This document shows, in pieces, positions 43,405-52,829 of a DNA stretch of 63,272 nucleotides. Position 1 is the stretch's first letter. Each line of letters opens with the position of its first letter. The DNA comes from an uncultured archaeon (GTDB lineage: Archaea > Asgardarchaeota > Lokiarchaeia > Sigyniarchaeales > SOKP01): the NCBI GenBank assembly GCA_964583985.1, contig CAZOYD010000006.1:23858-87129 (forward strand). Direction: 5' to 3'. The notes below the pieces were generated by a model, which saw only the letters and a list, made by a program, of their open reading frames with translations, was not told where the DNA came from and searched no databases. Position numbers and translations under genes: made by a program.

Positions 43405-44874
43405 TTGATTTATGATGTAATTATTATTGGAGGTGGCGTGATTGGATGCTGTATAGCACGCACACTTTCGAAATATGACCTTAAAATTGCCGTATTAGAA
43501 AAAGAAGCAGATATTGCTTCAGGTACTACAAAAGCTAATTCTGGAGTTGTTCATGCGGGTTATGCTGCAGAAAGAGAGTATTTAAAGCGAGACATGTGCA
43601 TTAAAGGTAATAAAATGTATACCAAAGCTGCAGAGGAGCTTAATTTTCCCCTTCAAAGGATAGGTTCTTTTGTGGTCGCCTTAGAAGATAATCAAATCAA
43701 AGATTTGGAAGTAGAACGTAACAATGGAATTCAAGATGGAATAGTTGGTTTAGAATTAATTCTGGATAAGAAAAAAATTAAACATATGGAACCAAATTTA
43801 ACCGATGATGTAGTAGGAGTACTTCATGCCCCCTCTGCAGGTATTGTGAGTCCATATGAGATGACATTTGCATTAGCAGAGAATGCAGCGATGAATGGCG
43901 TAAAATTTTTTCGCAGTCATAAAGTAAAAAGAATTCGTCATCAAAATTATATTTTCGAGTTAAAAACCAAGCAAAGTACTTTTAAAGCACGAAATATTGT
44001 AAACGCTGCTGGATTATTTGCTTCAAAAATTTCTAAGATGGTAGGATTGGATTATTTTGATATAATGCCTCGTAAGGGCGAATATATCTTATTTGATCGC
44101 AATTCGATGCATTTAAATAAAGTACTATTCCCAATGGCGACAAAAGTTTCAAAAGGAATATTAGTTTGTCCCACTGCTCACGGAAATACTTTTGTTGGAC
44201 CAAATGCCCAAAATTTATCAGATAAAAAAGATACATCAACAACAGAAGCTGGGTTAAAAGAGATACTTGAAGGAGCTAGAAAACTGGTTCCTCACTTGCC
44301 TGAACGTGCTTCAATTAGGAATTTTGCTGGTTTGAGAGCAATACCAGATAGTTATGACTTTATAATTGATAACACTGACGTGTATGGATTTATAAATGTC
44401 GCAGGGATTTTATCTCCTGGATTGACATCTTGTTATGCAATTTCAGAGAGAGTGATTGAATATCTTGAATTACTTGGCGTTGATTTGAAACCCAATGAAA
44501 AATATAACCCAATTCGGCCTAAACCCGAACGGTTTAAGGAATTTTTAAAAGATGAACTGGATCGAAAAATTAGAGTCGATCCAGCTTGGGGTCGAATCAT
44601 CTGCAGATGTGAAACTATTCCTGAAAAAGAGATTTTAAATGCTATTCATGCGCCTGTGGGGGCAATAAATGTTGATGGTGTCAAATTTCGTTGTAGACCT
44701 GGAATGGGTAGGTGTCAAGGAGGTTTTTGTCGTCCAAGAGTGATGGAAATTCTCGCAAGAGAATTAAATATCCCGTACCAAGATGTCACCAAAAAAAGTG
44801 AGGATTCCTATTATTTAGTTTCTAAAACCAAGGATGAACTACTTAAAAAATTAGAGAGTGGTGAAGAAGAATGA
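43405..44874 (+). CDS. GlpA-like FAD-dependent glycerol-3-phosphate dehydrogenase family with BFD-like [2Fe-2S] domain
   Basis: IIGGGVIG, TTKANSGVVHAG, FAGLRA, SPGLTS, ICRCE...RPGMGRCQGGFC. Confidence 0.85.
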   Translation: MIYDVIIIGGGVIGCCIARTLSKYDLKIAVLEKEADIASGTTKANSGVVHAGYAAEREYLKRDMCIKGNKMYTKAAEELNFPLQRIGSFVVALEDNQIKDLEVERNNGIQDGIVGLELILDKKKIKHMEPNLTDDVVGVLHAPSAGIVSPYEMTFALAENAAMNGVKFFRSHKVKRIRHQNYIFELKTKQSTFKARNIVNAAGLFASKISKMVGLDYFDIMPRKGEYILFDRNSMHLNKVLFPMATKVSKGILVCPTAHGNTFVGPNAQNLSDKKDTSTTEAGLKEILEGARKLVPHLPERASIRNFAGLRAIPDSYDFIIDNTDVYGFINVAGILSPGLTSCYAISERVIEYLELLGVDLKPNEKYNPIRPKPERFKEFLKDELDRKIRVDPAWGRIICRCETIPEKEILNAIHAPVGAINVDGVKFRCRPGMGRCQGGFCRPRVMEILARELNIPYQDVTKKSEDSYYLVSKTKDELLKKLESGEEE

Positions 44875-46169
44875 AAAGTTATAAAGCAGATGTACTTGTT
44901 ATTGGTGCTGGAGCAGCAGGCTTAGCCGCAGCAATAGAAGTCAAAAAATCAGATTTAAAAGTATTAATAATAGAAAGGGCTAAAGAGTTAGGGGGAATTA
45001 CATTACAATGCATCCATAATGGTTTTGGGCTTAAGGAATTTGAAGAAGAGTTGACAGGACCTGAATACGCTCAAAGATTTATTAATCAGGTCAATGATTT
45101 GAAAATACCGTATATTTTAGATACGATGGTTATTGAAATTACAAAAGATAAAAAAATTTATGCCGTGAACAACAAAGAAGGGCTCATTGAAGTTAGCGCA
45201 AAAGCAATAATACTTGCTATGGGATGCCGTGAAAGAACGAGGGGTGCTATCAACATTCCGGGATTTAGACCATCGGGAATATATACCGCGGGACAAGCAC
45301 AAAGATTCGTAAACATTGAAGGTTATTTACCGGGACATACATATGTCATTTTAGGAAGCGGAGATATTGGAATGATAATGGCCCGCCGATTGACATGGGA
45401 AGGATGTAATGTAAAAGCTGTAGTTGAAATCCAACCATACGTAAGTGGGCTTCTGAGAAATCAAGTTCAATGTTTAGAGGATTATGATATTCCCTTAATT
45501 ACTAGTTATACTGTCACTAAAATTCACGGGAGAGATAGATTGCAAGGCGTTTCAATAGCAAAAGTTACAAAGGATTATGACCGAATAATAGGATCTGAAA
45601 GATTTATCGAATGTGATACCTTGTTACTTTCAGTGGGATTAATCCCTGAAAATGAATTAACTTTACAAGCTGGAGCTACTCTATCCCAAAATGGTGGACC
45701 AATGGTGGATAATAATTTAGAAACCACGATTGATGGGATTTTTGCTTGTGGAAATGTTCTCCAAGTTCATGATTTAGTTGACATGGTTACTTCCGAAGCC
45801 AAGCGAGCCGGAAAAAATGTCATCGATTACATACAATATCGATATGATAAACCAGTTAAAAAAGAAGAGAAGATTAAATGCATTCCTGGTGAAAACATAA
45901 ATTATCTAAAACCAGACCTTGTAAATAAAAGTGACATTGAATCTAACATTATATTTAATTTTCGAGTGAAATATCCTGATAGACGAGTAATCATTCAATT
46001 TAAAGATGAGAAGAATAAAGTAATCTACACACGAAAAAAAGTGTACGTGATTCCTAGCGAAATGATCGAATTAGCTCTTAATCTTAAAGAAATTGGTGTA
46101 GAAACGACGATTAAAGAAATTAGAATAGAAGTCATTCCTCGTCCTGAAGTTTTAATAGAGGAGGATTAA
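44871..46169 (+). CDS. NAD(P)/FAD oxidoreductase subunit of the G3P dehydrogenase-type cluster
   Basis: GAGAAG, LGGI.LQCIHNGFG, LTGPEY, GCRERTRG, GNVLQVHDLVD; ATGA overlap with the preceding gene. Confidence 0.87.
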   Translation: MKSYKADVLVIGAGAAGLAAAIEVKKSDLKVLIIERAKELGGITLQCIHNGFGLKEFEEELTGPEYAQRFINQVNDLKIPYILDTMVIEITKDKKIYAVNNKEGLIEVSAKAIILAMGCRERTRGAINIPGFRPSGIYTAGQAQRFVNIEGYLPGHTYVILGSGDIGMIMARRLTWEGCNVKAVVEIQPYVSGLLRNQVQCLEDYDIPLITSYTVTKIHGRDRLQGVSIAKVTKDYDRIIGSERFIECDTLLLSVGLIPENELTLQAGATLSQNGGPMVDNNLETTIDGIFACGNVLQVHDLVDMVTSEAKRAGKNVIDYIQYRYDKPVKKEEKIKCIPGENINYLKPDLVNKSDIESNIIFNFRVKYPDRRVIIQFKDEKNKVIYTRKKVYVIPSEMIELALNLKEIGVETTIKEIRIEVIPRPEVLIEED

Positions 46170-46175
46170 AAAGAG

Positions 46176-46562
46176 GTGATATTAATGTCAGAAATAAGTA
46201 CTGTTAAAGTTATTCGTTGTATTGTGTGTCCTACAGGATGTGAGATTAAAGCTATTAAAAATCCTAATAATGAAATCACGTTTGAAGGTTATACGTGCAA
46301 TCGGGGTTTAGAATATGCTACTCAAGAATTTTATGAACCCAAAAGAATTCTTACAACAACGATCAGAGTGGAAAATGGGTTTTTACCTCTAATTCCCGTA
46401 AGAACTGACAAACCGATACTTAAAGATAAATTAAATGAAGCTTTGATGATAATAGCACAAACCGTTGTAAACGCTCCTGTCAAGATGGGAGATATTTTGA
46501 TTAAAGACTTGTTAAATAGTGGCGCTAATGTTATAGCAAGTAGAGACTTAGGTAAGGCTTAA
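46176..46562 (+). CDS. DUF1667 CxxC protein
   Basis: CIVCPTGC...C.RG..YA.QE...PKR.LTTT. Confidence 0.88.
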   Translation: MILMSEISTVKVIRCIVCPTGCEIKAIKNPNNEITFEGYTCNRGLEYATQEFYEPKRILTTTIRVENGFLPLIPVRTDKPILKDKLNEALMIIAQTVVNAPVKMGDILIKDLLNSGANVIASRDLGKA

Positions 46563-46606: not shown

Positions 46607-46789
46607 ATGAAAATTAACGAAGTTGTCATTATAGGAGGATTGATTGCAAGATAAGTAGCAGGACGTTATCTTGCCAATGCAGGGATTTCAATGCTAATAG
46701 TAGAAGCTGCTAAAATGCCTCGAGAGAAGCCATGTAGCGGAATTCAATTTAAATATTTTGAAAAATTGATTGGGACACAAATTGAATAG
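46607..46789 (+). pseudogene. remnant of a geranylgeranyl-reductase-family FAD enzyme
   Basis: My translation MKINEVVIIGGLIAR*VAGRYLANAGISMLIVEAAKMPREKPCSGIQFKYFEKLIGTQIE*; degenerate Rossmann motif, PRxKPCxG, internal TAA at 46652. Confidence 0.8.
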
Positions 46790-46797
46790 ATAAAAAA

Positions 46798-47253
46798 ATG
46801 GTAGAATTAGATCAAATTTATAAAGTTTATCCGAATCTCTATATAGGTGCTTATTGGCCCCGTCTTAATTTTAAATTGTTTAAAAAACTAGGGATAACAG
46901 CTATAGTCAATTTAATGGAAGATAATTATTACGATCCCACGGATCTGGGATTTGAATATCTTTATAAAGGATTTCCTGATGATTGGTATCCTCCACATAG
47001 TTATATTAAAGAGATATTAGATTTTATAGATATTCACATAAAAAAAGGAAAAGTTCTGGTTCACTGTGCTATGGGAATTTCCAGGAGTGGAGGGCTCATA
47101 GTTGCTTGGATAATGAAAGAAAATCCAGGATGGAGTTGGACAAAAGCTTTGAAAACGGTACAGAAAGAGCGTTTAATTTATCCTGCAATTGAAATCAAAA
47201 TGGCAATTTTAGATTATTTCGAATCAATTGAAGGACATAGAAGAAATGACTAA
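46798..47253 (+). CDS. dual-specificity protein phosphatase
   Basis: VLVHCAMGISRSG (HCx5R), LYIG, FPD. Confidence 0.93.
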   Translation: MVELDQIYKVYPNLYIGAYWPRLNFKLFKKLGITAIVNLMEDNYYDPTDLGFEYLYKGFPDDWYPPHSYIKEILDFIDIHIKKGKVLVHCAMGISRSGGLIVAWIMKENPGWSWTKALKTVQKERLIYPAIEIKMAILDYFESIEGHRRND

Positions 47254-47268
47254 TTTTGATTAATATAT

Positions 47269-49578
47269 TTGATGGTAAGGTTCAAGATGGATAATAACCA
47301 GCCTGTTCTAAACGTTTTAATTGCAGGACATGCCCAGCATGGCAAAAGTAGTTTAATTCAAGCAATATGTGGAGTTTTTCCCGATAATCTAGACTTTGAA
47401 CTTATTAGAGGTACCACCGTAACATTAAAAGTAATAGAATTTGTTCTGACTAAGAAAAATCTAAAGATAAATTTCTTGGATAGTCCAGGTCATGCCGATT
47501 TCAAGGGTGGTATTGCATTAGGATTATCATTTACCGATTTATTAATTTTAGTAGTAGCTGGAAATGAGGGTTTTCAAGCTAGAACATATTGGTTATACCA
47601 GAAAGCTATTGAATTGAACGTACCAATTATTATAGCAGTAACAAAAATGGATTTAAGAAATGCAAACATTGATATCATTAAAAAGGAATTAAATCAATTA
47701 AATCCAAATAAAAATTTACCTATTATAGAAACATCTGCTAAGCTAATTTTTGGAATTGATGAACTAATAGATAAAATATCATTATACACAAAGATAAGAA
47801 CTGATATAAATGAAGATTTATCATTCATTATTCTGGGCTATGAATTCAAAAAAGGGTTTGGAGAATTATTAGATATTGGATTAATATCAGGTACAATTGA
47901 AAGTAATTGGATTACTGATAAAATTAAAGTCCGTCATTTATTATCAATGGATGGAAAAACATTAAATAAAGCGATAGAAGGGCAAATTGTAAAAGTTTCT
48001 TTAAACATTGATGCCAATTTTGAGCTTGGCACCATTTATCGCGAAGGAAAATTTCTGCCTTCGAGTTTTAGTGGAACTTTATCAGAAATTAAACCCAGAA
48101 AAGAATTTTTCATCACCATTGATGATCCAATTCGATTTAAAATTGGAATGAATACCTTAGGAAATTTACAAAAGCTAATTCCTTCTTTCGATTTTTATGT
48201 AGATAATGGAACCATAAATATTTTAGTATTAGGAGATTTGCAATTTGAATTCATTAAGAAAAATCTTGAAGAACTAATTGAATTTCAAATATCAGGTTCA
48301 AAAATAAAAGGTATTATAACAATTAATTCAGCAAGTGATGCTAAATTCGGAACTGCTCATGTTCGTATCGTTCCTCGTTGTTCACACGCATTCACTATTT
48401 CAAGAGGAATTAATGCATTAAATGAACCGAAATTAATCGATATTTTAGGAGTATCTGTTGTAAAACAAGCATTTCATATTGATGGCCTTCACACTACTAT
48501 TTATTCAGGAAATAATGAGGATGATATTGCCCAAGCGATTGCAAAAGCAATTGAAAAGACTAAACTTATAAAAATCATACCTTATCAAGATGTTTTAGTC
48601 AAGGTTGATAATCAACACGATTTATTTCCAATTATTGAGAAATATAACATAGAAGTGCTCCATCAAGATATAAACCAAAATTTCTTCCTTCAAATAAAGA
48701 TTGATGATTTTGATCCATTCTTCAATTCCTTGATGAAAATTTCAAACGGTATGGCAGAAATAAATCTTATTCGCTTTGACAAAGAAGAATTGGTACTTGC
48801 TGTAGATCCTGGAACTCGACATTTCGGATTTTGCCTAATGGAGCAAGGAGAACTTCCTTCTTTATGGCACGTAAATCTCAAAAATAAAATTGATAATATT
48901 AAGTCTTGGAGTTCATCTCAAAAAACGCTTAAAAGAGAACTAGATACTTTTTTGCAATATCAAAAAGATTTAATTAAGAAAATCTTCATTGGAAATGGAC
49001 CAGGATCAGAATTTATAGTAGAATTCCTCAAAGTATTTTTCGATCTACAAGATGATAATAATGAAAATATGGAACAGAGATTTTCTTCTCCAGAAATATA
49101 TCTCGTAGATGAATATAAAACAACAAAAGAAGCATTATATCATCTTCAAAATGGTAAACTTGTAAATGAAGTACACTCTAAAGGGTTTGTTGATCACGCT
49201 ATTGCTGCTTTAGTAATTGCTAAAAGAGGAATAAAAGGTGAAATCATCAAAATTGACAGATCACCAATTAAAAAATTACATGAATATATAATAGAAAATT
49301 ATAGTGGATCACTTTCCTTTTCTAGCATTCATAATATTAACAGTTTGGATGACCTCAAGAGAGGATTATACCTGCGAATAAAAGATTCATCAAGACTAGA
49401 TTCTCGGCTGAAAAATGGAGAAATTATAGCTTTTACTGGATTTGGGCAAGGTTATGGCGAATTACATGCTAATACTATCACGGGTAATAAAATCATCATA
49501 AAATTTCAAGGAAATGTAAAATTAAGAAGAGATTTCTTTAAGATCTTCACACCCATGAAGGAAAGAAGCTCCTCTTAA
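47269..49578 (+). CDS. EF-G/EF-2-like translational GTPase fused to a YqgF/Tex RNase H-like domain
   Basis: GHAQHGKSS, RGTTV, DSPGHADF, TKMD, SAK; LGDLQFEFI (domain III-like); domain V-like IIPYQ...SLMKISNG; LAVDPGTRHFG, IGNGPGS, VDEYKTT, DHAIAA. Confidence 0.85.
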   Translation: MMVRFKMDNNQPVLNVLIAGHAQHGKSSLIQAICGVFPDNLDFELIRGTTVTLKVIEFVLTKKNLKINFLDSPGHADFKGGIALGLSFTDLLILVVAGNEGFQARTYWLYQKAIELNVPIIIAVTKMDLRNANIDIIKKELNQLNPNKNLPIIETSAKLIFGIDELIDKISLYTKIRTDINEDLSFIILGYEFKKGFGELLDIGLISGTIESNWITDKIKVRHLLSMDGKTLNKAIEGQIVKVSLNIDANFELGTIYREGKFLPSSFSGTLSEIKPRKEFFITIDDPIRFKIGMNTLGNLQKLIPSFDFYVDNGTINILVLGDLQFEFIKKNLEELIEFQISGSKIKGIITINSASDAKFGTAHVRIVPRCSHAFTISRGINALNEPKLIDILGVSVVKQAFHIDGLHTTIYSGNNEDDIAQAIAKAIEKTKLIKIIPYQDVLVKVDNQHDLFPIIEKYNIEVLHQDINQNFFLQIKIDDFDPFFNSLMKISNGMAEINLIRFDKEELVLAVDPGTRHFGFCLMEQGELPSLWHVNLKNKIDNIKSWSSSQKTLKRELDTFLQYQKDLIKKIFIGNGPGSEFIVEFLKVFFDLQDDNNENMEQRFSSPEIYLVDEYKTTKEALYHLQNGKLVNEVHSKGFVDHAIAALVIAKRGIKGEIIKIDRSPIKKLHEYIIENYSGSLSFSSIHNINSLDDLKRGLYLRIKDSSRLDSRLKNGEIIAFTGFGQGYGELHANTITGNKIIIKFQGNVKLRRDFFKIFTPMKERSSS

Positions 49579-49691
49579 GGTTATTTAAGTTATAATCTCT
49601 CTCACATTCAACCTTTCATTTACATAAATATTTAAAAATCAAATAGATCATATATTAAAATCTTTTTTTATTGAAAAGAGAAGGAAAAAAA

Positions 49692-50012
49692 ATGACAGAA
49701 TTTGAAGAAAAAATTTTATTATTATTAGGAACAATAAATGAAAAATTGGATAAACTTTTGAATTTGAAAACATCTCAACCATCATTTCCTGAAACCACAG
49801 GTACGGTAAAACCATCTGAGTTACTTGAAAGACAAAAAGAAGAAGAACGAGCAATTGAAAAACCACCTGTTGAAGGAAGAAGAATATGTCCAAAGTGTGG
49901 AGGTACAACCTTTAATACGGTTGAAGATCAATCACAAGTTCTATTTCAACAAGGTGGGATGAAGATCTATGCTAAATCATATATTTGTAAGAGTTGCGGA
50001 ACAAAGGTCTAA
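49692..50012 (+). CDS. small Zn-ribbon protein
   Basis: EGRRICPKCG...YICKSCG; N-terminal helix; ATG at 49692. Confidence 0.8.
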   Translation: MTEFEEKILLLLGTINEKLDKLLNLKTSQPSFPETTGTVKPSELLERQKEEERAIEKPPVEGRRICPKCGGTTFNTVEDQSQVLFQQGGMKIYAKSYICKSCGTKV

Positions 50013-50181
50013 TTTTTTCAATATTTTTTTCTATAAATATTGTTAAGTTATCTTGAAAATTAAATTCTAAAGCATCAAATAAAATCATTTTAATTCCTTA
50101 GGTTTTTAATGCAACTATACCATATTATTTTTGAAAAAACTTGCATAAAAACTTCTTTAGAAAATTCCATTTATTGTTAAG

Positions 50182-51381: not shown

Positions 51382-51990
51382 ATGAGCAATGAGATTATAA
51401 TTTTTCAGATCTTTCTAATAACATTATTAATGGTCTCTCTGAGTATGATTTTTAATAAGATTTTTGGATTAACTCCCTCAAGTTCAAGAGAAATCAGAGA
51501 ACAGACAATGGCCTTACAAGAACGAATGAGGACCGCTCAGCAAGAAGGTAATGCCCAAAATCTAAGGCAATTACAGCAAGAATCAATAGAATTGACAAAA
51601 ACAATGTTGAAAAAGCAACTAATCCCATCATGTGTACGATGTTTTGTTTTTCTTGGCATTTTTGGGATATTAGGTCTCTTTTTTGCTGAATATGCAACTG
51701 GACTCCTTCCCTTTCCGGTTTTGTTTTTCGGAAGTGGATGGGTTGGTGTATATTTTCTATTTTCAATTTCATTATCGCTATTGATATATTTGGCAAGAAT
51801 AGTTTATAGAAAGATGACGGGAAAAGAAGATAAAAGGAAATTGGAAAAGCAAGAAATCATGGGGATGTTAAATCCAACTTCAGGGAATACTCGAGGGTAC
51901 ATGCAATTAAATGTTGAACCTACTGAAGAGTTGCCTATAGATGATCCTACTGAAAGGAAAGATTCTTGGAAAGAAAAAATACAAAATTAA
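51382..51990 (+). CDS. EMC3/TMCO1/DUF106 (Oxa1-superfamily) membrane protein
   Basis: TM1, coiled coil (ALQERMRTAQQEGN...QQE), TM2, GWVGVYFLFS TM3. Confidence 0.8.
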   Translation: MSNEIIIFQIFLITLLMVSLSMIFNKIFGLTPSSSREIREQTMALQERMRTAQQEGNAQNLRQLQQESIELTKTMLKKQLIPSCVRCFVFLGIFGILGLFFAEYATGLLPFPVLFFGSGWVGVYFLFSISLSLLIYLARIVYRKMTGKEDKRKLEKQEIMGMLNPTSGNTRGYMQLNVEPTEELPIDDPTERKDSWKEKIQN

Positions 51991-51999
51991 ACTTTAAGT

Positions 52000-52341
52000 T
52001 TGAGAAAATTGTCAGAGAAAAAAAACGAGAATGACATCAACACCGATGCTTCTTGGAAAAAAAGGATAAAGAAACCAGTCCAAGAAGAACCAGAACAGGA
52101 ATTGCATGAAACAGAGCCTTTTGTAGATGTTAAATTTAATGATATAGAAAGAGAACCTTATAATTTACACGAATTACATGATTCTGAAACACCAGCGTTT
52201 GTAAATGTTCACGTTAATAATGCTGAAATGCCTGAAAGAATTTGTAAGAAATGTGGTCATCAAGTTAAGGAAGAAAATTTGAATTTTTGCCCAAAATGTG
52301 GTAATAGATTAAAAAGACCAAGGTATAACTTCAGGCGTTAA
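52000..52341 (+). CDS. zinc-ribbon domain protein
   Basis: CKKCG...FCPKCG. Confidence 0.8.
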   Translation: MRKLSEKKNENDINTDASWKKRIKKPVQEEPEQELHETEPFVDVKFNDIEREPYNLHELHDSETPAFVNVHVNNAEMPERICKKCGHQVKEENLNFCPKCGNRLKRPRYNFRR

Positions 52342-52343
52342 GA

Positions 52344-52829
52344 TTGGATGAAAAAGATGATTTAAATCGCCAAATGTTATTATACTTTCTTTTCGCGGTT
52401 TTAATGATAATTTTAAATTATATTATTCAAAAACTCAATCAATTGTTTTTTGCTCCATTAATTTGCTCTAATTTTGGAAGTATTGAGATTATTCATGCCC
52501 TCTATTGCTCGATTTTTCCATTTAATATGCCTGATTTGATTGGATCAATTGCTGCTGTAGGCATTACATATCTCATCAAATTTTTTCTTGATAAATTTAT
52601 CGTATTCAAAAAAGGCGGAAATCAAATAAAAGAAACATCAAAAGAGTTTTTAAAATATTTCGGATTTGCGATCCTAACCACGATTGAAAATGTCGGTATA
52701 CAGTTCCTTCTAAATAATCTCTTGAATACTCCATTAGAAATCAGCATTATTATTGCACTTCCCATTGGATATTTAACGAAATTTTATTTGGATAGGAAAT
52801 ATGTCTTCAATAAAAGAATTATTTTATAG
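52344..52829 (+). CDS. GtrA-like membrane protein
   Basis: 4 TM segments with the repeated motif KFFLDKFIVF / KFYLDRKYVF. Confidence 0.75.
   Translation: MDEKDDLNRQMLLYFLFAVLMIILNYIIQKLNQLFFAPLICSNFGSIEIIHALYCSIFPFNMPDLIGSIAAVGITYLIKFFLDKFIVFKKGGNQIKETSKEFLKYFGFAILTTIENVGIQFLLNNLLNTPLEISIIIALPIGYLTKFYLDRKYVFNKRIIL

What the first reader, a model, noticed from the sequence alone, without database searches (positions are those of the whole stretch)
47269..49578. EF-G-like GTPase fused to a YqgF/Tex-type nuclease domain: candidate ribosome-targeted nuclease
Seen: a complete translational-GTPase motif set (G1 GHAQHGKSS with Gln for the usual Asp, RGTT, DSPGH with the catalytic His, TKMD, SAK) and compact domain II/III/IV/V-like segments. 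From about aa 508 (nt 48790) an RNase H-fold follows, with acidic residues intact (AVDPG, IGNGPGS, VDEYKTTKEA, DHAIAA), then a ~110-aa beta-rich tail. Known: EF-G/EF-2 relatives (TetM, LepA, BipA, Efl1, Snu114) dock on ribosomes or RNPs; YqgF processes pre-16S rRNA; Tex/Spt6 carry the same fold. I do not know this fusion as a described family. Inference: GTP-gated cleavage of rRNA, mRNA or tRNA in ribosome maturation, rescue/decay or antiviral shut-off.
Basis: partly seen in the sequence, partly recalled or inferred. Interest (0 to 1): 0.88.

Follow-up and report, generated by a model that had tools for sequence, protein, structure and literature searches.

The report
EF-G-like GTPase fused to YqgF nuclease
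This Lokiarchaeal gene encodes a small copy of the ribosome-binding factor EF-G/EF-2 joined to a YqgF/RuvX-type nuclease that looks intact and a small basic barrel; the fusion is real, conserved, dispensable and unstudied, and it probably brings a nuclease to the ribosome under GTP control.

Summary
The ORF at 47269-49578 (+), probably starting at ATG 47287 (763 aa), is a real gene under purifying selection.

- **EF-G-like part.** Residues 1-500 form a compact five-domain EF-G/EF-2-type translational GTPase. All G motifs are invariant. The model matches archaeal EF-2 at Z 32.6 over 426 residues.
- **Nuclease part.** Residues 505-658 are a YqgF/RuvX-type RNase H-fold domain (Z 11-12 to Tex-YqgF and D. 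radiodurans YqgF). They keep the YqgF-specific Asp/Glu/Asp triad.
- **Tail.** A helical linker and a basic beta-barrel follow.
- **Exclusivity.** A profile of the C-terminal half found only this 735-780 aa architecture among 1.84 billion proteins.
- **Distribution.** The family occurs in Lokiarchaeia, Odin/Asgardarchaeia and Methanopyri, including cultured M. kandleri AV19.
- **Dispensability.** In Lokiarchaeia the gene sits at one conserved chromosomal locus. It is cleanly missing from that locus in four 100%-complete congeners whose locus was read; a fifth lacks the gene genome-wide.
- **Context.** Nothing in the neighbourhood points to defence.
- **Literature.** I found no paper on it.

Best reading (about 0.5): an accessory, GTP-gated nuclease that docks on the ribosome. 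The target and the biology are not shown. This scan has met the same family before in at least ten other genomes.

The parts
47287..49578 (+). Gene for the GTPase-nuclease fusion (763 aa from ATG 47287; the open frame begins at TTG 47269)
   Evidence: orthologues all start at the Met equivalent to 47287.
47302..47793 (+). G domain (aa 12-175) with G1 GHAQHGKSS, G2 RGTT, G3 DSPGH, G4 TKMD and G5 SAK. It has no G' insertion.
   Evidence: Pfam GTP_EFTU E 1e-28. The motifs are invariant across the family, including members at 31% identity.
47806..48078 (+). Domain II beta-barrel (aa 180-270)
   Evidence: Secondary structure of the model. The family profile matches domains II-III of TetM, aEF-2 and RF3 (E 3.6e-10). 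EF-G_D2 matches at E 8e-8 in two members.
48091..48309 (+). Domain III (aa 275-347), beta-alpha-beta-beta-alpha-beta. Its LGDLQFEFIK motif aligns to the domain III motif of TetM.
   Evidence: (alignment shown).
48310..48582 (+). Domain IV-like unit (aa 348-438), shorter than in EF-G/EF-2
   Evidence: Model. The structural alignment to aEF-2 runs through it (model 5-501 against chain 5-701).
48586..48753 (+). Domain V (aa 440-495), ferredoxin-like
   Evidence: One member gives a weak EFG_C match (E 0.0045).
48781..49242 (+). YqgF/RuvX-type RNase H-fold domain (aa 505-658). Invariant D513 (strand 1), G575xGxG579, D614-E615 (end of strand 5), E621 and D642-H643 (helix 3).
   Evidence: Pfam RuvX in 30 of 31 members, best E 1e-8. 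VIA-align Z 12.1 to Tex and 11.2 to D. radiodurans YqgF. Foldseek and ESM Atlas matches. Invariance.
49243..49362 (+). Two-helix linker (aa 659-698), the most constrained segment (dN/dS 0.06)
49363..49563 (+). Small basic beta-barrel-like tail (aa 699-765, pI 10.3). The fold is not assigned.
   Evidence: Only a loose resemblance to the retroviral integrase core-plus-SH3 layout.
46798..47253 (+). Upstream dual-specificity phosphatase gene. It is a syntenic neighbour, not an obligate partner.
   Evidence: Pfam DSPc E 5e-17. It is kept in the four congener loci read that lack the GTPase.
49692..50012 (+). Downstream small zinc-ribbon protein gene. It is often the next gene, and it stays in three of the four congener loci read that lack the GTPase.

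Best explanation
The gene encodes an accessory translational GTPase of the EF-G/EF-2 kind. It carries its own effector, a YqgF/RuvX-type metal-dependent nuclease, followed by a basic barrel that may hold nucleic acid.

Proposed mechanism:
1. In the GTP form, the five EF-G-like domains dock in the factor-binding site of the ribosome, as all known proteins of this architecture dock on a ribosome or a related RNP.
2. This places the nuclease, which is attached after domain V, against RNA on or in the ribosome (rRNA, pre-rRNA ends, tRNA or mRNA).
3. GTP hydrolysis through the conserved switch II His then releases the factor.

Because cells of the same genus live without the gene, its role would be conditional, for example ribosome quality control, turnover or stress-linked trimming, rather than core biogenesis.

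Shown here: the domain architecture, the intact catalytic motifs of both enzymes, purifying selection, restriction of the nuclease module to this fusion, and dispensability. Inferred: ribosome binding, RNA (rather than DNA) as substrate, GTP gating and the biological role.
For: **EF-G/EF-2 architecture.**
- Foldseek E about 1e-25 to LepA, aEF-2, EF-G and TetM.
- VIA-align Z 32.6 to aEF-2, 426 residues aligned, model 5-501.
- The profile of aa 176-499 matches domains II-III of TetM/TetO/aEF-2/RF3, E 3.6e-10.

**GTPase intact.** G1-G5 are invariant down to 31% identity, including the switch II His.

**YqgF type.**
- Pfam RuvX in 30 of 31 members.
- Z 12.1 to Tex, 11.2 to DrYqgF and about 10 to RuvX and E. 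coli YqgF.
- The nearest ESM Atlas models are Tex_YqgF and 'Pre-16S rRNA nuclease' clusters.

**Catalytic pattern.** There is an Asp on strand 1, a Glu at the end of strand 5, an Asp on helix 3 and no Glu after strand 4. PMC9601230 describes exactly this pattern as YqgF-specific and required for RNase activity. The same paper states that E. coli YqgF cuts pre-16S rRNA only inside 70S ribosomes.

**Selection.** dN/dS is 0.06-0.20 in every domain.

**Exclusivity.** The C-terminal profile found only this family in 1.84 billion proteins. No stand-alone RuvX passes the cut-off in 70 genomes of the same family.

**Dispensability.** Found in 19 of 67 genomes of the family and 7 of 26 of the genus. 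Absent from five 100%-complete congeners, with the phosphatase and the downstream genes kept and no remnant in the four whose locus was read.
Against: - Nothing here tests ribosome binding, GTPase activation, nuclease activity or a substrate.
- The AF2 model is poorly resolved exactly where two of the three catalytic carboxylates lie. In the full-length model aa 614-656 have pLDDT under 50. In the C-domain model, blocks 12-14 (aa 617-636 of the protein) score 61-64.
- Some YqgF proteins cut branched DNA rather than RNA (PMC9601230).
- Snu114 has the same GTPase architecture and matches equally well (Z 32.8), yet it works on a non-ribosomal RNP.
- The window protein scores only 17-20 bits on Pfam RuvX, below the 29.2-bit cut-off.
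- The patchy distribution would also suit a conflict-related gene.
Confidence: 0.5

Rival explanations
1. The YqgF-like domain does not cut. It is an RNA-binding or tRNA-mimicking module, as in Tex and Spt6. The protein would then be a ribosome-binding factor (rescue, hibernation, subunit splitting or protection) without nuclease activity.
For: The best structural match is the non-catalytic YqgF domain of Tex, and Spt6 is also high in the list. YqgF proteins have only three carboxylates, too few on their own for two metals (PMC9601230). The catalytic region is poorly modelled.
Against: D513, D614-E615 and D642 are invariant from Lokiarchaeia to Methanopyrus at 31% identity. This triad is the one whose mutation abolishes or impairs DrYqgF RNase activity. 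Pure binding modules usually lose such residues.
Confidence: 0.15
2. The target is not the ribosome. The EF-G-like body drives or gates a YqgF nuclease on another substrate, such as branched DNA (a RuvX-like resolvase) or a different RNP, much as Snu114 uses the same architecture in the spliceosome.
For: M. tuberculosis and H. pylori YqgF resolve Holliday junctions (PMC9601230). RuvC, the chloroplast resolvase and poxvirus resolvases are among the structural matches. Snu114 matches as well as EF-2 does.
Against: The Glu after strand 4 that marks RuvC is absent. The complete set of translational-GTPase motifs is kept, including the His that, from established knowledge of these factors, is positioned by the sarcin-ricin loop. 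No DNA repair or recombination genes are conserved nearby.
Confidence: 0.15
3. It is a defence or abortive-infection effector that shuts down translation by cutting ribosomal or transfer RNA when triggered.
For: Presence is patchy even within one genus. A nuclease aimed at the translation apparatus is a common logic in toxins.
Against: The gene sits at the same chromosomal locus between the same metabolic and membrane genes in lineages only 55-60% identical, which points to vertical descent with losses rather than mobility. There is no match to PADLOC models beyond a generic G-domain hit. No neighbouring immunity-like or defence genes recur. It is present in every Methanopyrus record seen.
Confidence: 0.1
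4. It is a core, housekeeping ribosome-maturation enzyme, the archaeal counterpart of bacterial YqgF in 16S rRNA 5' processing.
For: E. coli YqgF processes pre-16S rRNA within 70S ribosomes (as cited in PMC9601230). An rRNA/tRNA m5C methyltransferase gene lies within 4-8 kb in both Methanopyrus and Asgardarchaeum.
Against: The gene was not found in 48 of 67 genomes of the same family. It is absent from five 100%-complete genomes of the same genus, and in the four whose locus was read the flanking genes are retained with no remnant of it.
Confidence: 0.05

Closest known systems
aEF-2 / EF-G (five-domain translocases of the EF2 family of translational GTPases); also LepA, Tet(M)/Tet(O), RF3 and Snu114
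   Same: Same order of domains G, II, III, IV, V, and the same G1-G5 motifs with the switch II His. Structural Z is 32.6 to archaeal EF-2 over 426 residues and about 31 to ribosome-bound EF-G. There is profile-level homology of domains II-III to TetM, aEF-2 and RF3.
   Different: About 200 residues shorter than aEF-2, with no G' insertion and a small domain IV. By sequence the G domain scores best with IF-2 and SelB models. All NCBIfam equivalog cut-offs are missed by a wide margin. The nearest paralogue in its own genome is a SelB-like protein at 27% identity. No known member carries a nuclease.
YqgF / RuvX (pre-16S rRNA nuclease / putative Holliday junction resolvase, Pfam PF03652)
   Same: RNase H-like fold with five strands and three helices. 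Same motif pattern: DxGxxRxG on strands 1-2, DE..TT..A after strand 5, D..AA on helix 3. Same three-carboxylate active site without the RuvC Glu.
   Different: It is a C-terminal domain of a 763 aa protein rather than a 120-150 aa stand-alone enzyme. It has a variable insert of up to about 30 residues before strand 5. It is very divergent: the family profile reached no canonical YqgF at E 0.001 or better in 1.84 billion proteins. It is archaeal, whereas YqgF is essentially bacterial.
Tex / Spt6 YqgF-like domain
   Same: Best single structural match (Z 12.1, rmsd 3.1 A, 132 residues). The nearest ESM Atlas clusters are also of this kind.
   Different: Tex and Spt6 place the domain among Tex_N, HhH, SH2 or S1 modules, and theirs is regarded as non-catalytic (established knowledge). 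Here the acidic triad is invariant and the partner is a GTPase.
LepA (EF4) and BipA, EF2-family factors with an extra C-terminal domain after domain V
   Same: An additional module is attached after domain V. In those factors it reaches into the intersubunit space towards tRNA and 23S rRNA (established knowledge). LepA is the top Foldseek match.
   Different: Their C-terminal domains are small RNA-binding folds without enzyme activity. LepA lacks domain IV. Both are bacterial or organellar.

Membership tests
Translational GTPase superfamily (Pfam GTP_EFTU, PF00009) | G domain with G1 (P-loop), G2 Thr, G3 DxxGH with the catalytic His, G4 NKxD and G5 SAx | tested here: met
   PF00009 scores 100.7 bits against a cut-off of 26.5. 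The motifs are invariant in 31 and in 13 sequences, including members at 31% identity.
EF2 family (EF-G/EF-2-like five-domain factors) | Domains II, III, IV and V follow the G domain in the EF-G arrangement | tested here: met
   VIA-align Z 32.6, 426 residues, model 5-501 against aEF-2 5-701. Foldseek E about 1e-25. Profile match to domains II-III of TetM/aEF-2/RF3, E 3.6e-10. The structural evidence rests on an AF2 model with pLDDT 76.7.
Named subfamilies: aEF-2, EF-G, LepA, BipA, RF3, Tet(M), IF-2, SelB | Score above the curated NCBIfam equivalog cut-off | tested here: not met
   Best scores are 86 bits (IF-2, cut-off 424), 82 (SelB, 242), 72 (tet_protect, 775), 68 (LepA, 534) and 35-51 (EF-G models, 583-890).
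EF2 family | Ribosome-dependent GTP hydrolysis and binding at the factor-binding site | not testable with these tools
   This needs biochemistry or cryo-EM. The one complex prediction I attempted was not run.
YqgF / RuvX (PF03652) | RNase H-like fold with five strands and three helices | tested here: met
   The model has strands 508-514, 518-525, 531-536, 569-575 and 609-613 with helices between them. Z 11.2 to DrYqgF, 10.2 to RuvX and 9.9 to E. coli YqgF.
YqgF / RuvX (PF03652) | Three carboxylates: Asp on strand 1, Glu at the C-terminus of strand 5, Asp on helix 3, with no Glu after strand 4 (definition from PMC9601230) | tested here: met
   D513, E615 and D642 are invariant. The loop after strand 4 is GNGPGS, without Glu.
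YqgF / RuvX (PF03652) | Score above Pfam's gathering threshold (29.2 bits) | tested here: not met
   The window protein scores 17.4-20.3 bits. Of 31 family members, 30 match at E 1 or better, the best at 1e-8.
YqgF / RuvX (PF03652) | Metal-dependent nuclease activity | not testable with these tools
   This needs an enzyme assay.
RuvC Holliday junction resolvase | Catalytic Glu at the end of strand 4 and two acidic or His residues on the last helix | tested here: not met
   There is no Glu after strand 4. The fold does match RuvC (Foldseek E 1e-4, Z 9.5). Dimerisation was not tested.
Known anti-phage defence systems (PADLOC-DB 2.0) | Match to a defence protein model and a defence-island context | tested here: inconclusive
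   The window protein has no match. Two distant members hit only the G domain of LeoA. The neighbours are metabolic and membrane genes. The library dates from 2023.

The most novel reading that the evidence does not exclude
This would be the first translational GTPase that carries a catalytic effector: a nuclease delivered into the ribosome's factor site and timed by GTP hydrolysis. It would be an archaeal, single-polypeptide counterpart of the ribosome-coupled endonucleolytic steps that other organisms perform with separate proteins, such as rRNA end maturation inside assembled ribosomes or cleavage on stalled ribosomes. It could be tested directly in cultured Methanopyrus kandleri.
Probability: 0.45. 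Interest if true: 0.85.

Novelty: new variant of a known kind. Interest (0 to 1): 0.74.

Why it matters
All characterised EF-G/EF-2-like factors act by binding and conformational work; none is known to carry an enzyme that cuts nucleic acid. A GTP-timed nuclease at the factor-binding site would be a new way to couple ribosome state to RNA cleavage.

It bears on how archaea, whose ribosome quality-control and rRNA-trimming nucleases are poorly known, mature, repair or dispose of ribosomes.

Natural strains with and without the gene exist within one genus, and a cultured hyperthermophile (M. kandleri AV19, UniProt Q8TV36, annotated only as 'Translation initiation factor 2, GTPase') encodes an orthologue. 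The question is therefore open to experiment now.

If the nuclease proves inactive or the target is not the ribosome, the family is still an undescribed branch of the translational GTPases.

Tried and rejected
- **Complex prediction.** I asked for the EF-G-like part against the C-terminal tail of this genome's own ribosomal stalk protein aP1 (L069:1498-1797, minus strand).
- **Expression.** No RNA holder was listed for window 46700-50100.
- **Sequence profile of the C-terminal half against PDB chains.** Nothing significant: best E 0.059, to a kinase, judged spurious. The fold had to be found by structure.
- **ESM Atlas by features for the tail (aa 660-769).** No usable hit. The resemblance to the integrase core-plus-SH3 layout has rmsd of 16-20 A and is only a hint.
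- **Rfam on the whole window.** No family matched.
- **Search for a pseudogene remnant** in the four empty congener loci. None at E up to 10.
- **Sigma-70 promoter and intrinsic terminator scan.** Counts are within the shuffled expectation, and the scan does not apply to archaea.
- **Self-comparison of alignment A4**. Uninformative.
- **Phosphatase or zinc-ribbon protein as obligate partners.** Rejected. The phosphatase is kept in all four congener loci read that lack the GTPase, and the zinc-ribbon gene in three of them.
- **RsmB/F-type methyltransferase near the gene** in Methanopyrus and Asgardarchaeum. It does not occur in this window, so it is not a general partner.
- **Placement within the GTPase tree.** No tree was built, because no balanced reference set was to hand.
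Full report

The frame 47269-49578 (+) is open for 769 codons. All orthologues start at the Met encoded by ATG 47287, so the product is most likely 763 aa.

The window has about 31% G+C, so a 2.3 kb open frame is itself unlikely by chance. Pfam GTP_EFTU matches at E 1e-28. About 100 clusters of full-length homologues share 53-85% identity. dN/dS against the two nearest orthologues is 0.13 overall and 0.06-0.20 in each of eight segments. The gene is real, and where it is kept it is under purifying selection along its whole length.

**2. The N-terminal 500 residues**

By sequence, the G domain scores best with IF-2, SelB, Tet and LepA models. None comes near a curated cut-off.

An AlphaFold2 model built on a 31-sequence alignment (pLDDT 76.7, pTM 0.66) shows these units:
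- a G domain (12-175)
- a beta-barrel (about 180-270)
- a beta-alpha-beta-beta-alpha-beta unit (275-347)
- a four-strand plus alpha/beta unit (348-438)
- a ferredoxin-like unit (440-495)

Foldseek gives E about 1e-25 to LepA, archaeal EF-2, EF-G and TetM. VIA-align gives Z 32.6 to Methanoperedens EF-2, with 426 residues aligned and model 5-501 running against chain 5-701. It gives Z about 31 to ribosome-bound EF-G and Z 32.8 to Snu114.

Independently of the model, a profile of residues 176-499 matches domains II-III of TetM, TetO, aEF-2 and RF3 (E 3.6e-10 to 2e-5). The family's LGDLQFEFIK segment aligns to the corresponding domain III motif of TetM. Two members hit EF-G_D2 and one hits EFG_C.

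This part is therefore a miniature five-domain EF-G/EF-2-type factor, about 200 residues shorter than aEF-2 and without a G' insertion. The nearest paralogue in its own genome is a SelB-like protein at 27% identity in the G domain. The gene is single-copy and not a recent duplicate.

G1-G5, including the switch II His, are invariant across the family down to 31% identity.

**3. The C-terminal part**

Pfam RuvX is a weak match in the window protein (17-20 bits against a cut-off of 29.2). It matches 30 of 31 family members, the best at E 1e-8.

A separate model of residues 497-769 (pLDDT 73.7) has the order three strands, helix, strand, helix, strand, helices. Its matches are:
- VIA-align: Tex YqgF domain (Z 12.1, rmsd 3.1 A, 132 residues), D. 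radiodurans YqgF (Z 11.2), chloroplast resolvase, RuvX, poxvirus resolvase, Spt6 and E. coli YqgF (Z about 10).
- Foldseek: RuvC, Spt6/Tex, YeaZ and RuvX.
- ESM Atlas: the nearest clusters are Tex_YqgF and 'Pre-16S rRNA nuclease'.

Kinase-type RNase H folds such as PanK and TsaB also appear in the lists. However, the motif pattern is that of YqgF: DxGxxRxG on strands 1-2, DE..TT..EA after strand 5, and D..AA on the last helix.

PMC9601230 defines the YqgF active site as follows. There is an Asp on strand 1, a Glu at the end of strand 5 and an Asp on helix 3. The strand 4 Glu of RuvC is missing. Mutating these three residues impairs or abolishes the Mn-dependent RNase activity of D. radiodurans YqgF. 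The family here has exactly this: D513, E615 and D642 are invariant, and the loop after strand 4 is GNGPGS.

One weakness remains. The full-length model is below pLDDT 50 for residues 614-656, which hold two of the three carboxylates. The domain-only model is better there but not good.

After the nuclease come two helices (the most constrained segment, dN/dS 0.06) and a five-strand basic unit with pI 10.3. I could not assign its fold.

**4. Is the fusion general?**

A profile of the C-terminal half was searched against 1.84 billion representative proteins. It found 14 proteins: six full-length members of 735-777 aa, seven shorter pieces that look like fragments, and one weak hit in a 5663 aa protein. 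Within HMMER's reach, this nuclease module exists only in this architecture.

Named members come from:
- Promethearchaeota / Lokiarchaeia
- a Hermodarchaeota MAG
- Odinarchaeota
- Asgardarchaeum / Asgardarchaeia
- Methanopyrus

M. kandleri AV19 (AAM02777.1, WP_011019932.1, UniProt Q8TV36, on the 1,694,969 bp chromosome) encodes a 744 aa member, as do the isolates KOL6 and SNP6.

No stand-alone RuvX passes the Pfam cut-off in 70 genomes of this Lokiarchaeal family.

**5. Distribution and context**

Of 300 genomes sampled from the phylum, 22 carry the gene. In the window's own family it was found in 19 of 67 genomes, and in its own genus in 7 of 26.

Five congeners with 100% completeness have only the ordinary translation GTPases. 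I read the locus in four of them. The phosphatase gene and the EMC3-like, GtrA and following genes are all there. The upstream glycerol-3-phosphate-dehydrogenase-like genes were seen in three of the four, and the zinc-ribbon gene in three of the four. The GTPase gene is missing between the phosphatase and the next gene, leaving gaps of 111-676 bp and no detectable remnant.

Conversely, lineages whose orthologue is only 55-60% identical keep the gene at the same locus between the same genes. The simplest history is vertical inheritance with repeated clean loss.

This argues against an essential function and against a mobile element. No neighbouring gene recurs in Methanopyrus or Asgardarchaeum except an RsmB/F-type methyltransferase a few kb away, which is absent from this window. 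PADLOC gives nothing beyond a generic G-domain hit.

The phosphatase ends 15 nt before the frame (33 nt before ATG 47287), so co-transcription is plausible here. It is often separated from the GTPase by other genes elsewhere, and it persists without it.

**6. How it most likely works**

*Shown:* an EF-G/EF-2-like body with an intact GTPase centre, a covalently attached YqgF-type domain with an intact triad, a basic tail, selection on all parts, and dispensability.

*Inferred from established knowledge of the families:* proteins with this body bind the ribosomal factor site, or a related RNP in the case of Snu114. Their GTPase is switched on there. Modules added after domain V in LepA and BipA reach into the intersubunit space. 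E. coli YqgF acts on pre-16S rRNA only within 70S ribosomes (as stated in PMC9601230).

The best-supported mechanism is therefore a nuclease carried to the ribosome and gated by GTP, used in a conditional role such as quality control, turnover or trimming. I put this at about 0.5.

Rivals:
- a non-catalytic RNA-binding use of the domain (0.15)
- a non-ribosomal target, including branched DNA (0.15)
- a defence effector (0.1)
- a core maturation enzyme (0.05, largely excluded by the clean absences)

**7. Comparison with what is known, and novelty**

The protein meets the tests for the translational GTPase superfamily and for the five-domain EF2-family architecture. It fails every named subfamily's cut-off.

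Its C-terminal domain meets the fold and active-site definitions of YqgF/RuvX. It fails the Pfam threshold and the stand-alone architecture.

I found no paper describing the fusion. The searches for Asgard/GTPase/YqgF, EF-G/nuclease/RuvX and the M. kandleri accessions returned nothing relevant. Atkinson's survey of translational GTPases (PMC4342817) mentions neither a nuclease nor Methanopyrus. Public records call it 'GTP-binding protein', 'Translation initiation factor 2, GTPase' or, for one fragment, 'Holliday junction resolvase RuvX'.

It is best classed as a new variant of known kinds: an undescribed translational-GTPase subfamily with a nuclease effector.

The same family has already been noted and followed up in at least ten other genomes of this scan, with concordant conclusions.
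- the locus-level demonstration of clean loss within one genus
- per-domain selection values
- confirmation of the AV19 orthologue

Noticed in passing
window 46798-50012; loci L065-L068: There is a clean presence/absence polymorphism. In four 100%-complete congeners the phosphatase gene and the genes further downstream are all retained, and the zinc-ribbon gene is retained in three of the four. The GTPase gene is missing, leaving gaps of 111-676 bp without any remnant.
   Followed up: yes
window 49692-50012: A small helix-plus-zinc-ribbon protein is the immediate downstream neighbour of the GTPase in most Lokiarchaeal loci. It stays in place in three of the four empty loci read.
   Followed up: partly
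L026 16518-17858 and L027 3200-4159: An RsmB/F (NOL1/NOP2/Sun) type m5C RNA methyltransferase gene lies 4-8 kb from the fusion gene in both Methanopyrus and Asgardarchaeum (28-32% identity to each other). None is present in this window.
   Followed up: partly
P0116 (5663 aa protein from the representative library): There is a weak match (E 1.6e-4, five stretches, residues 5412-5507) of the C-terminal profile to a giant protein. It may be a distant YqgF-like domain or may be spurious.
   Followed up: no
L023 12346-12990 and L024 6882-7526: A 214 aa protein with unmarked Pfam BAR / BAR_3 hits is encoded a few genes downstream of the orthologue in two Promethearchaeota MAGs. BAR domains are typical of eukaryotic membrane remodelling.
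   Followed up: no
L023 5909-6838 and L024 445-1362: A DDE_Tnp_1 transposase gene is inserted between the DUF1667 gene and the phosphatase gene in some MAGs. The otherwise conserved locus therefore tolerates insertions upstream of the fusion gene.
   Followed up: no
window 43405-46562: This is a three-gene set: a DAO/BFD-like [2Fe-2S] oxidoreductase, a pyridine nucleotide-disulphide oxidoreductase and a DUF1667 protein. It resembles an anaerobic glycerol-3-phosphate dehydrogenase-type module and is strongly syntenic with the fusion locus across Lokiarchaeia.
   Followed up: partly
window 51382-52829: An EMC3/TMCO1-like (YidC/Oxa1-type insertase) gene, a zinc-ribbon gene and a GtrA-like gene form a conserved downstream block.
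   Followed up: no
window aa 401-423 of the protein (nt 48469-48537): The segment FHIDGLH...SGNNEDDIA in the domain IV-like unit resembles, from memory only, the tip-loop region of EF-G/EF-2 domain IV (DG..H..DSSE.AF). G414 and E417 are invariant, but the His is lost in the Odin and Methanopyrus branches.
   Followed up: no
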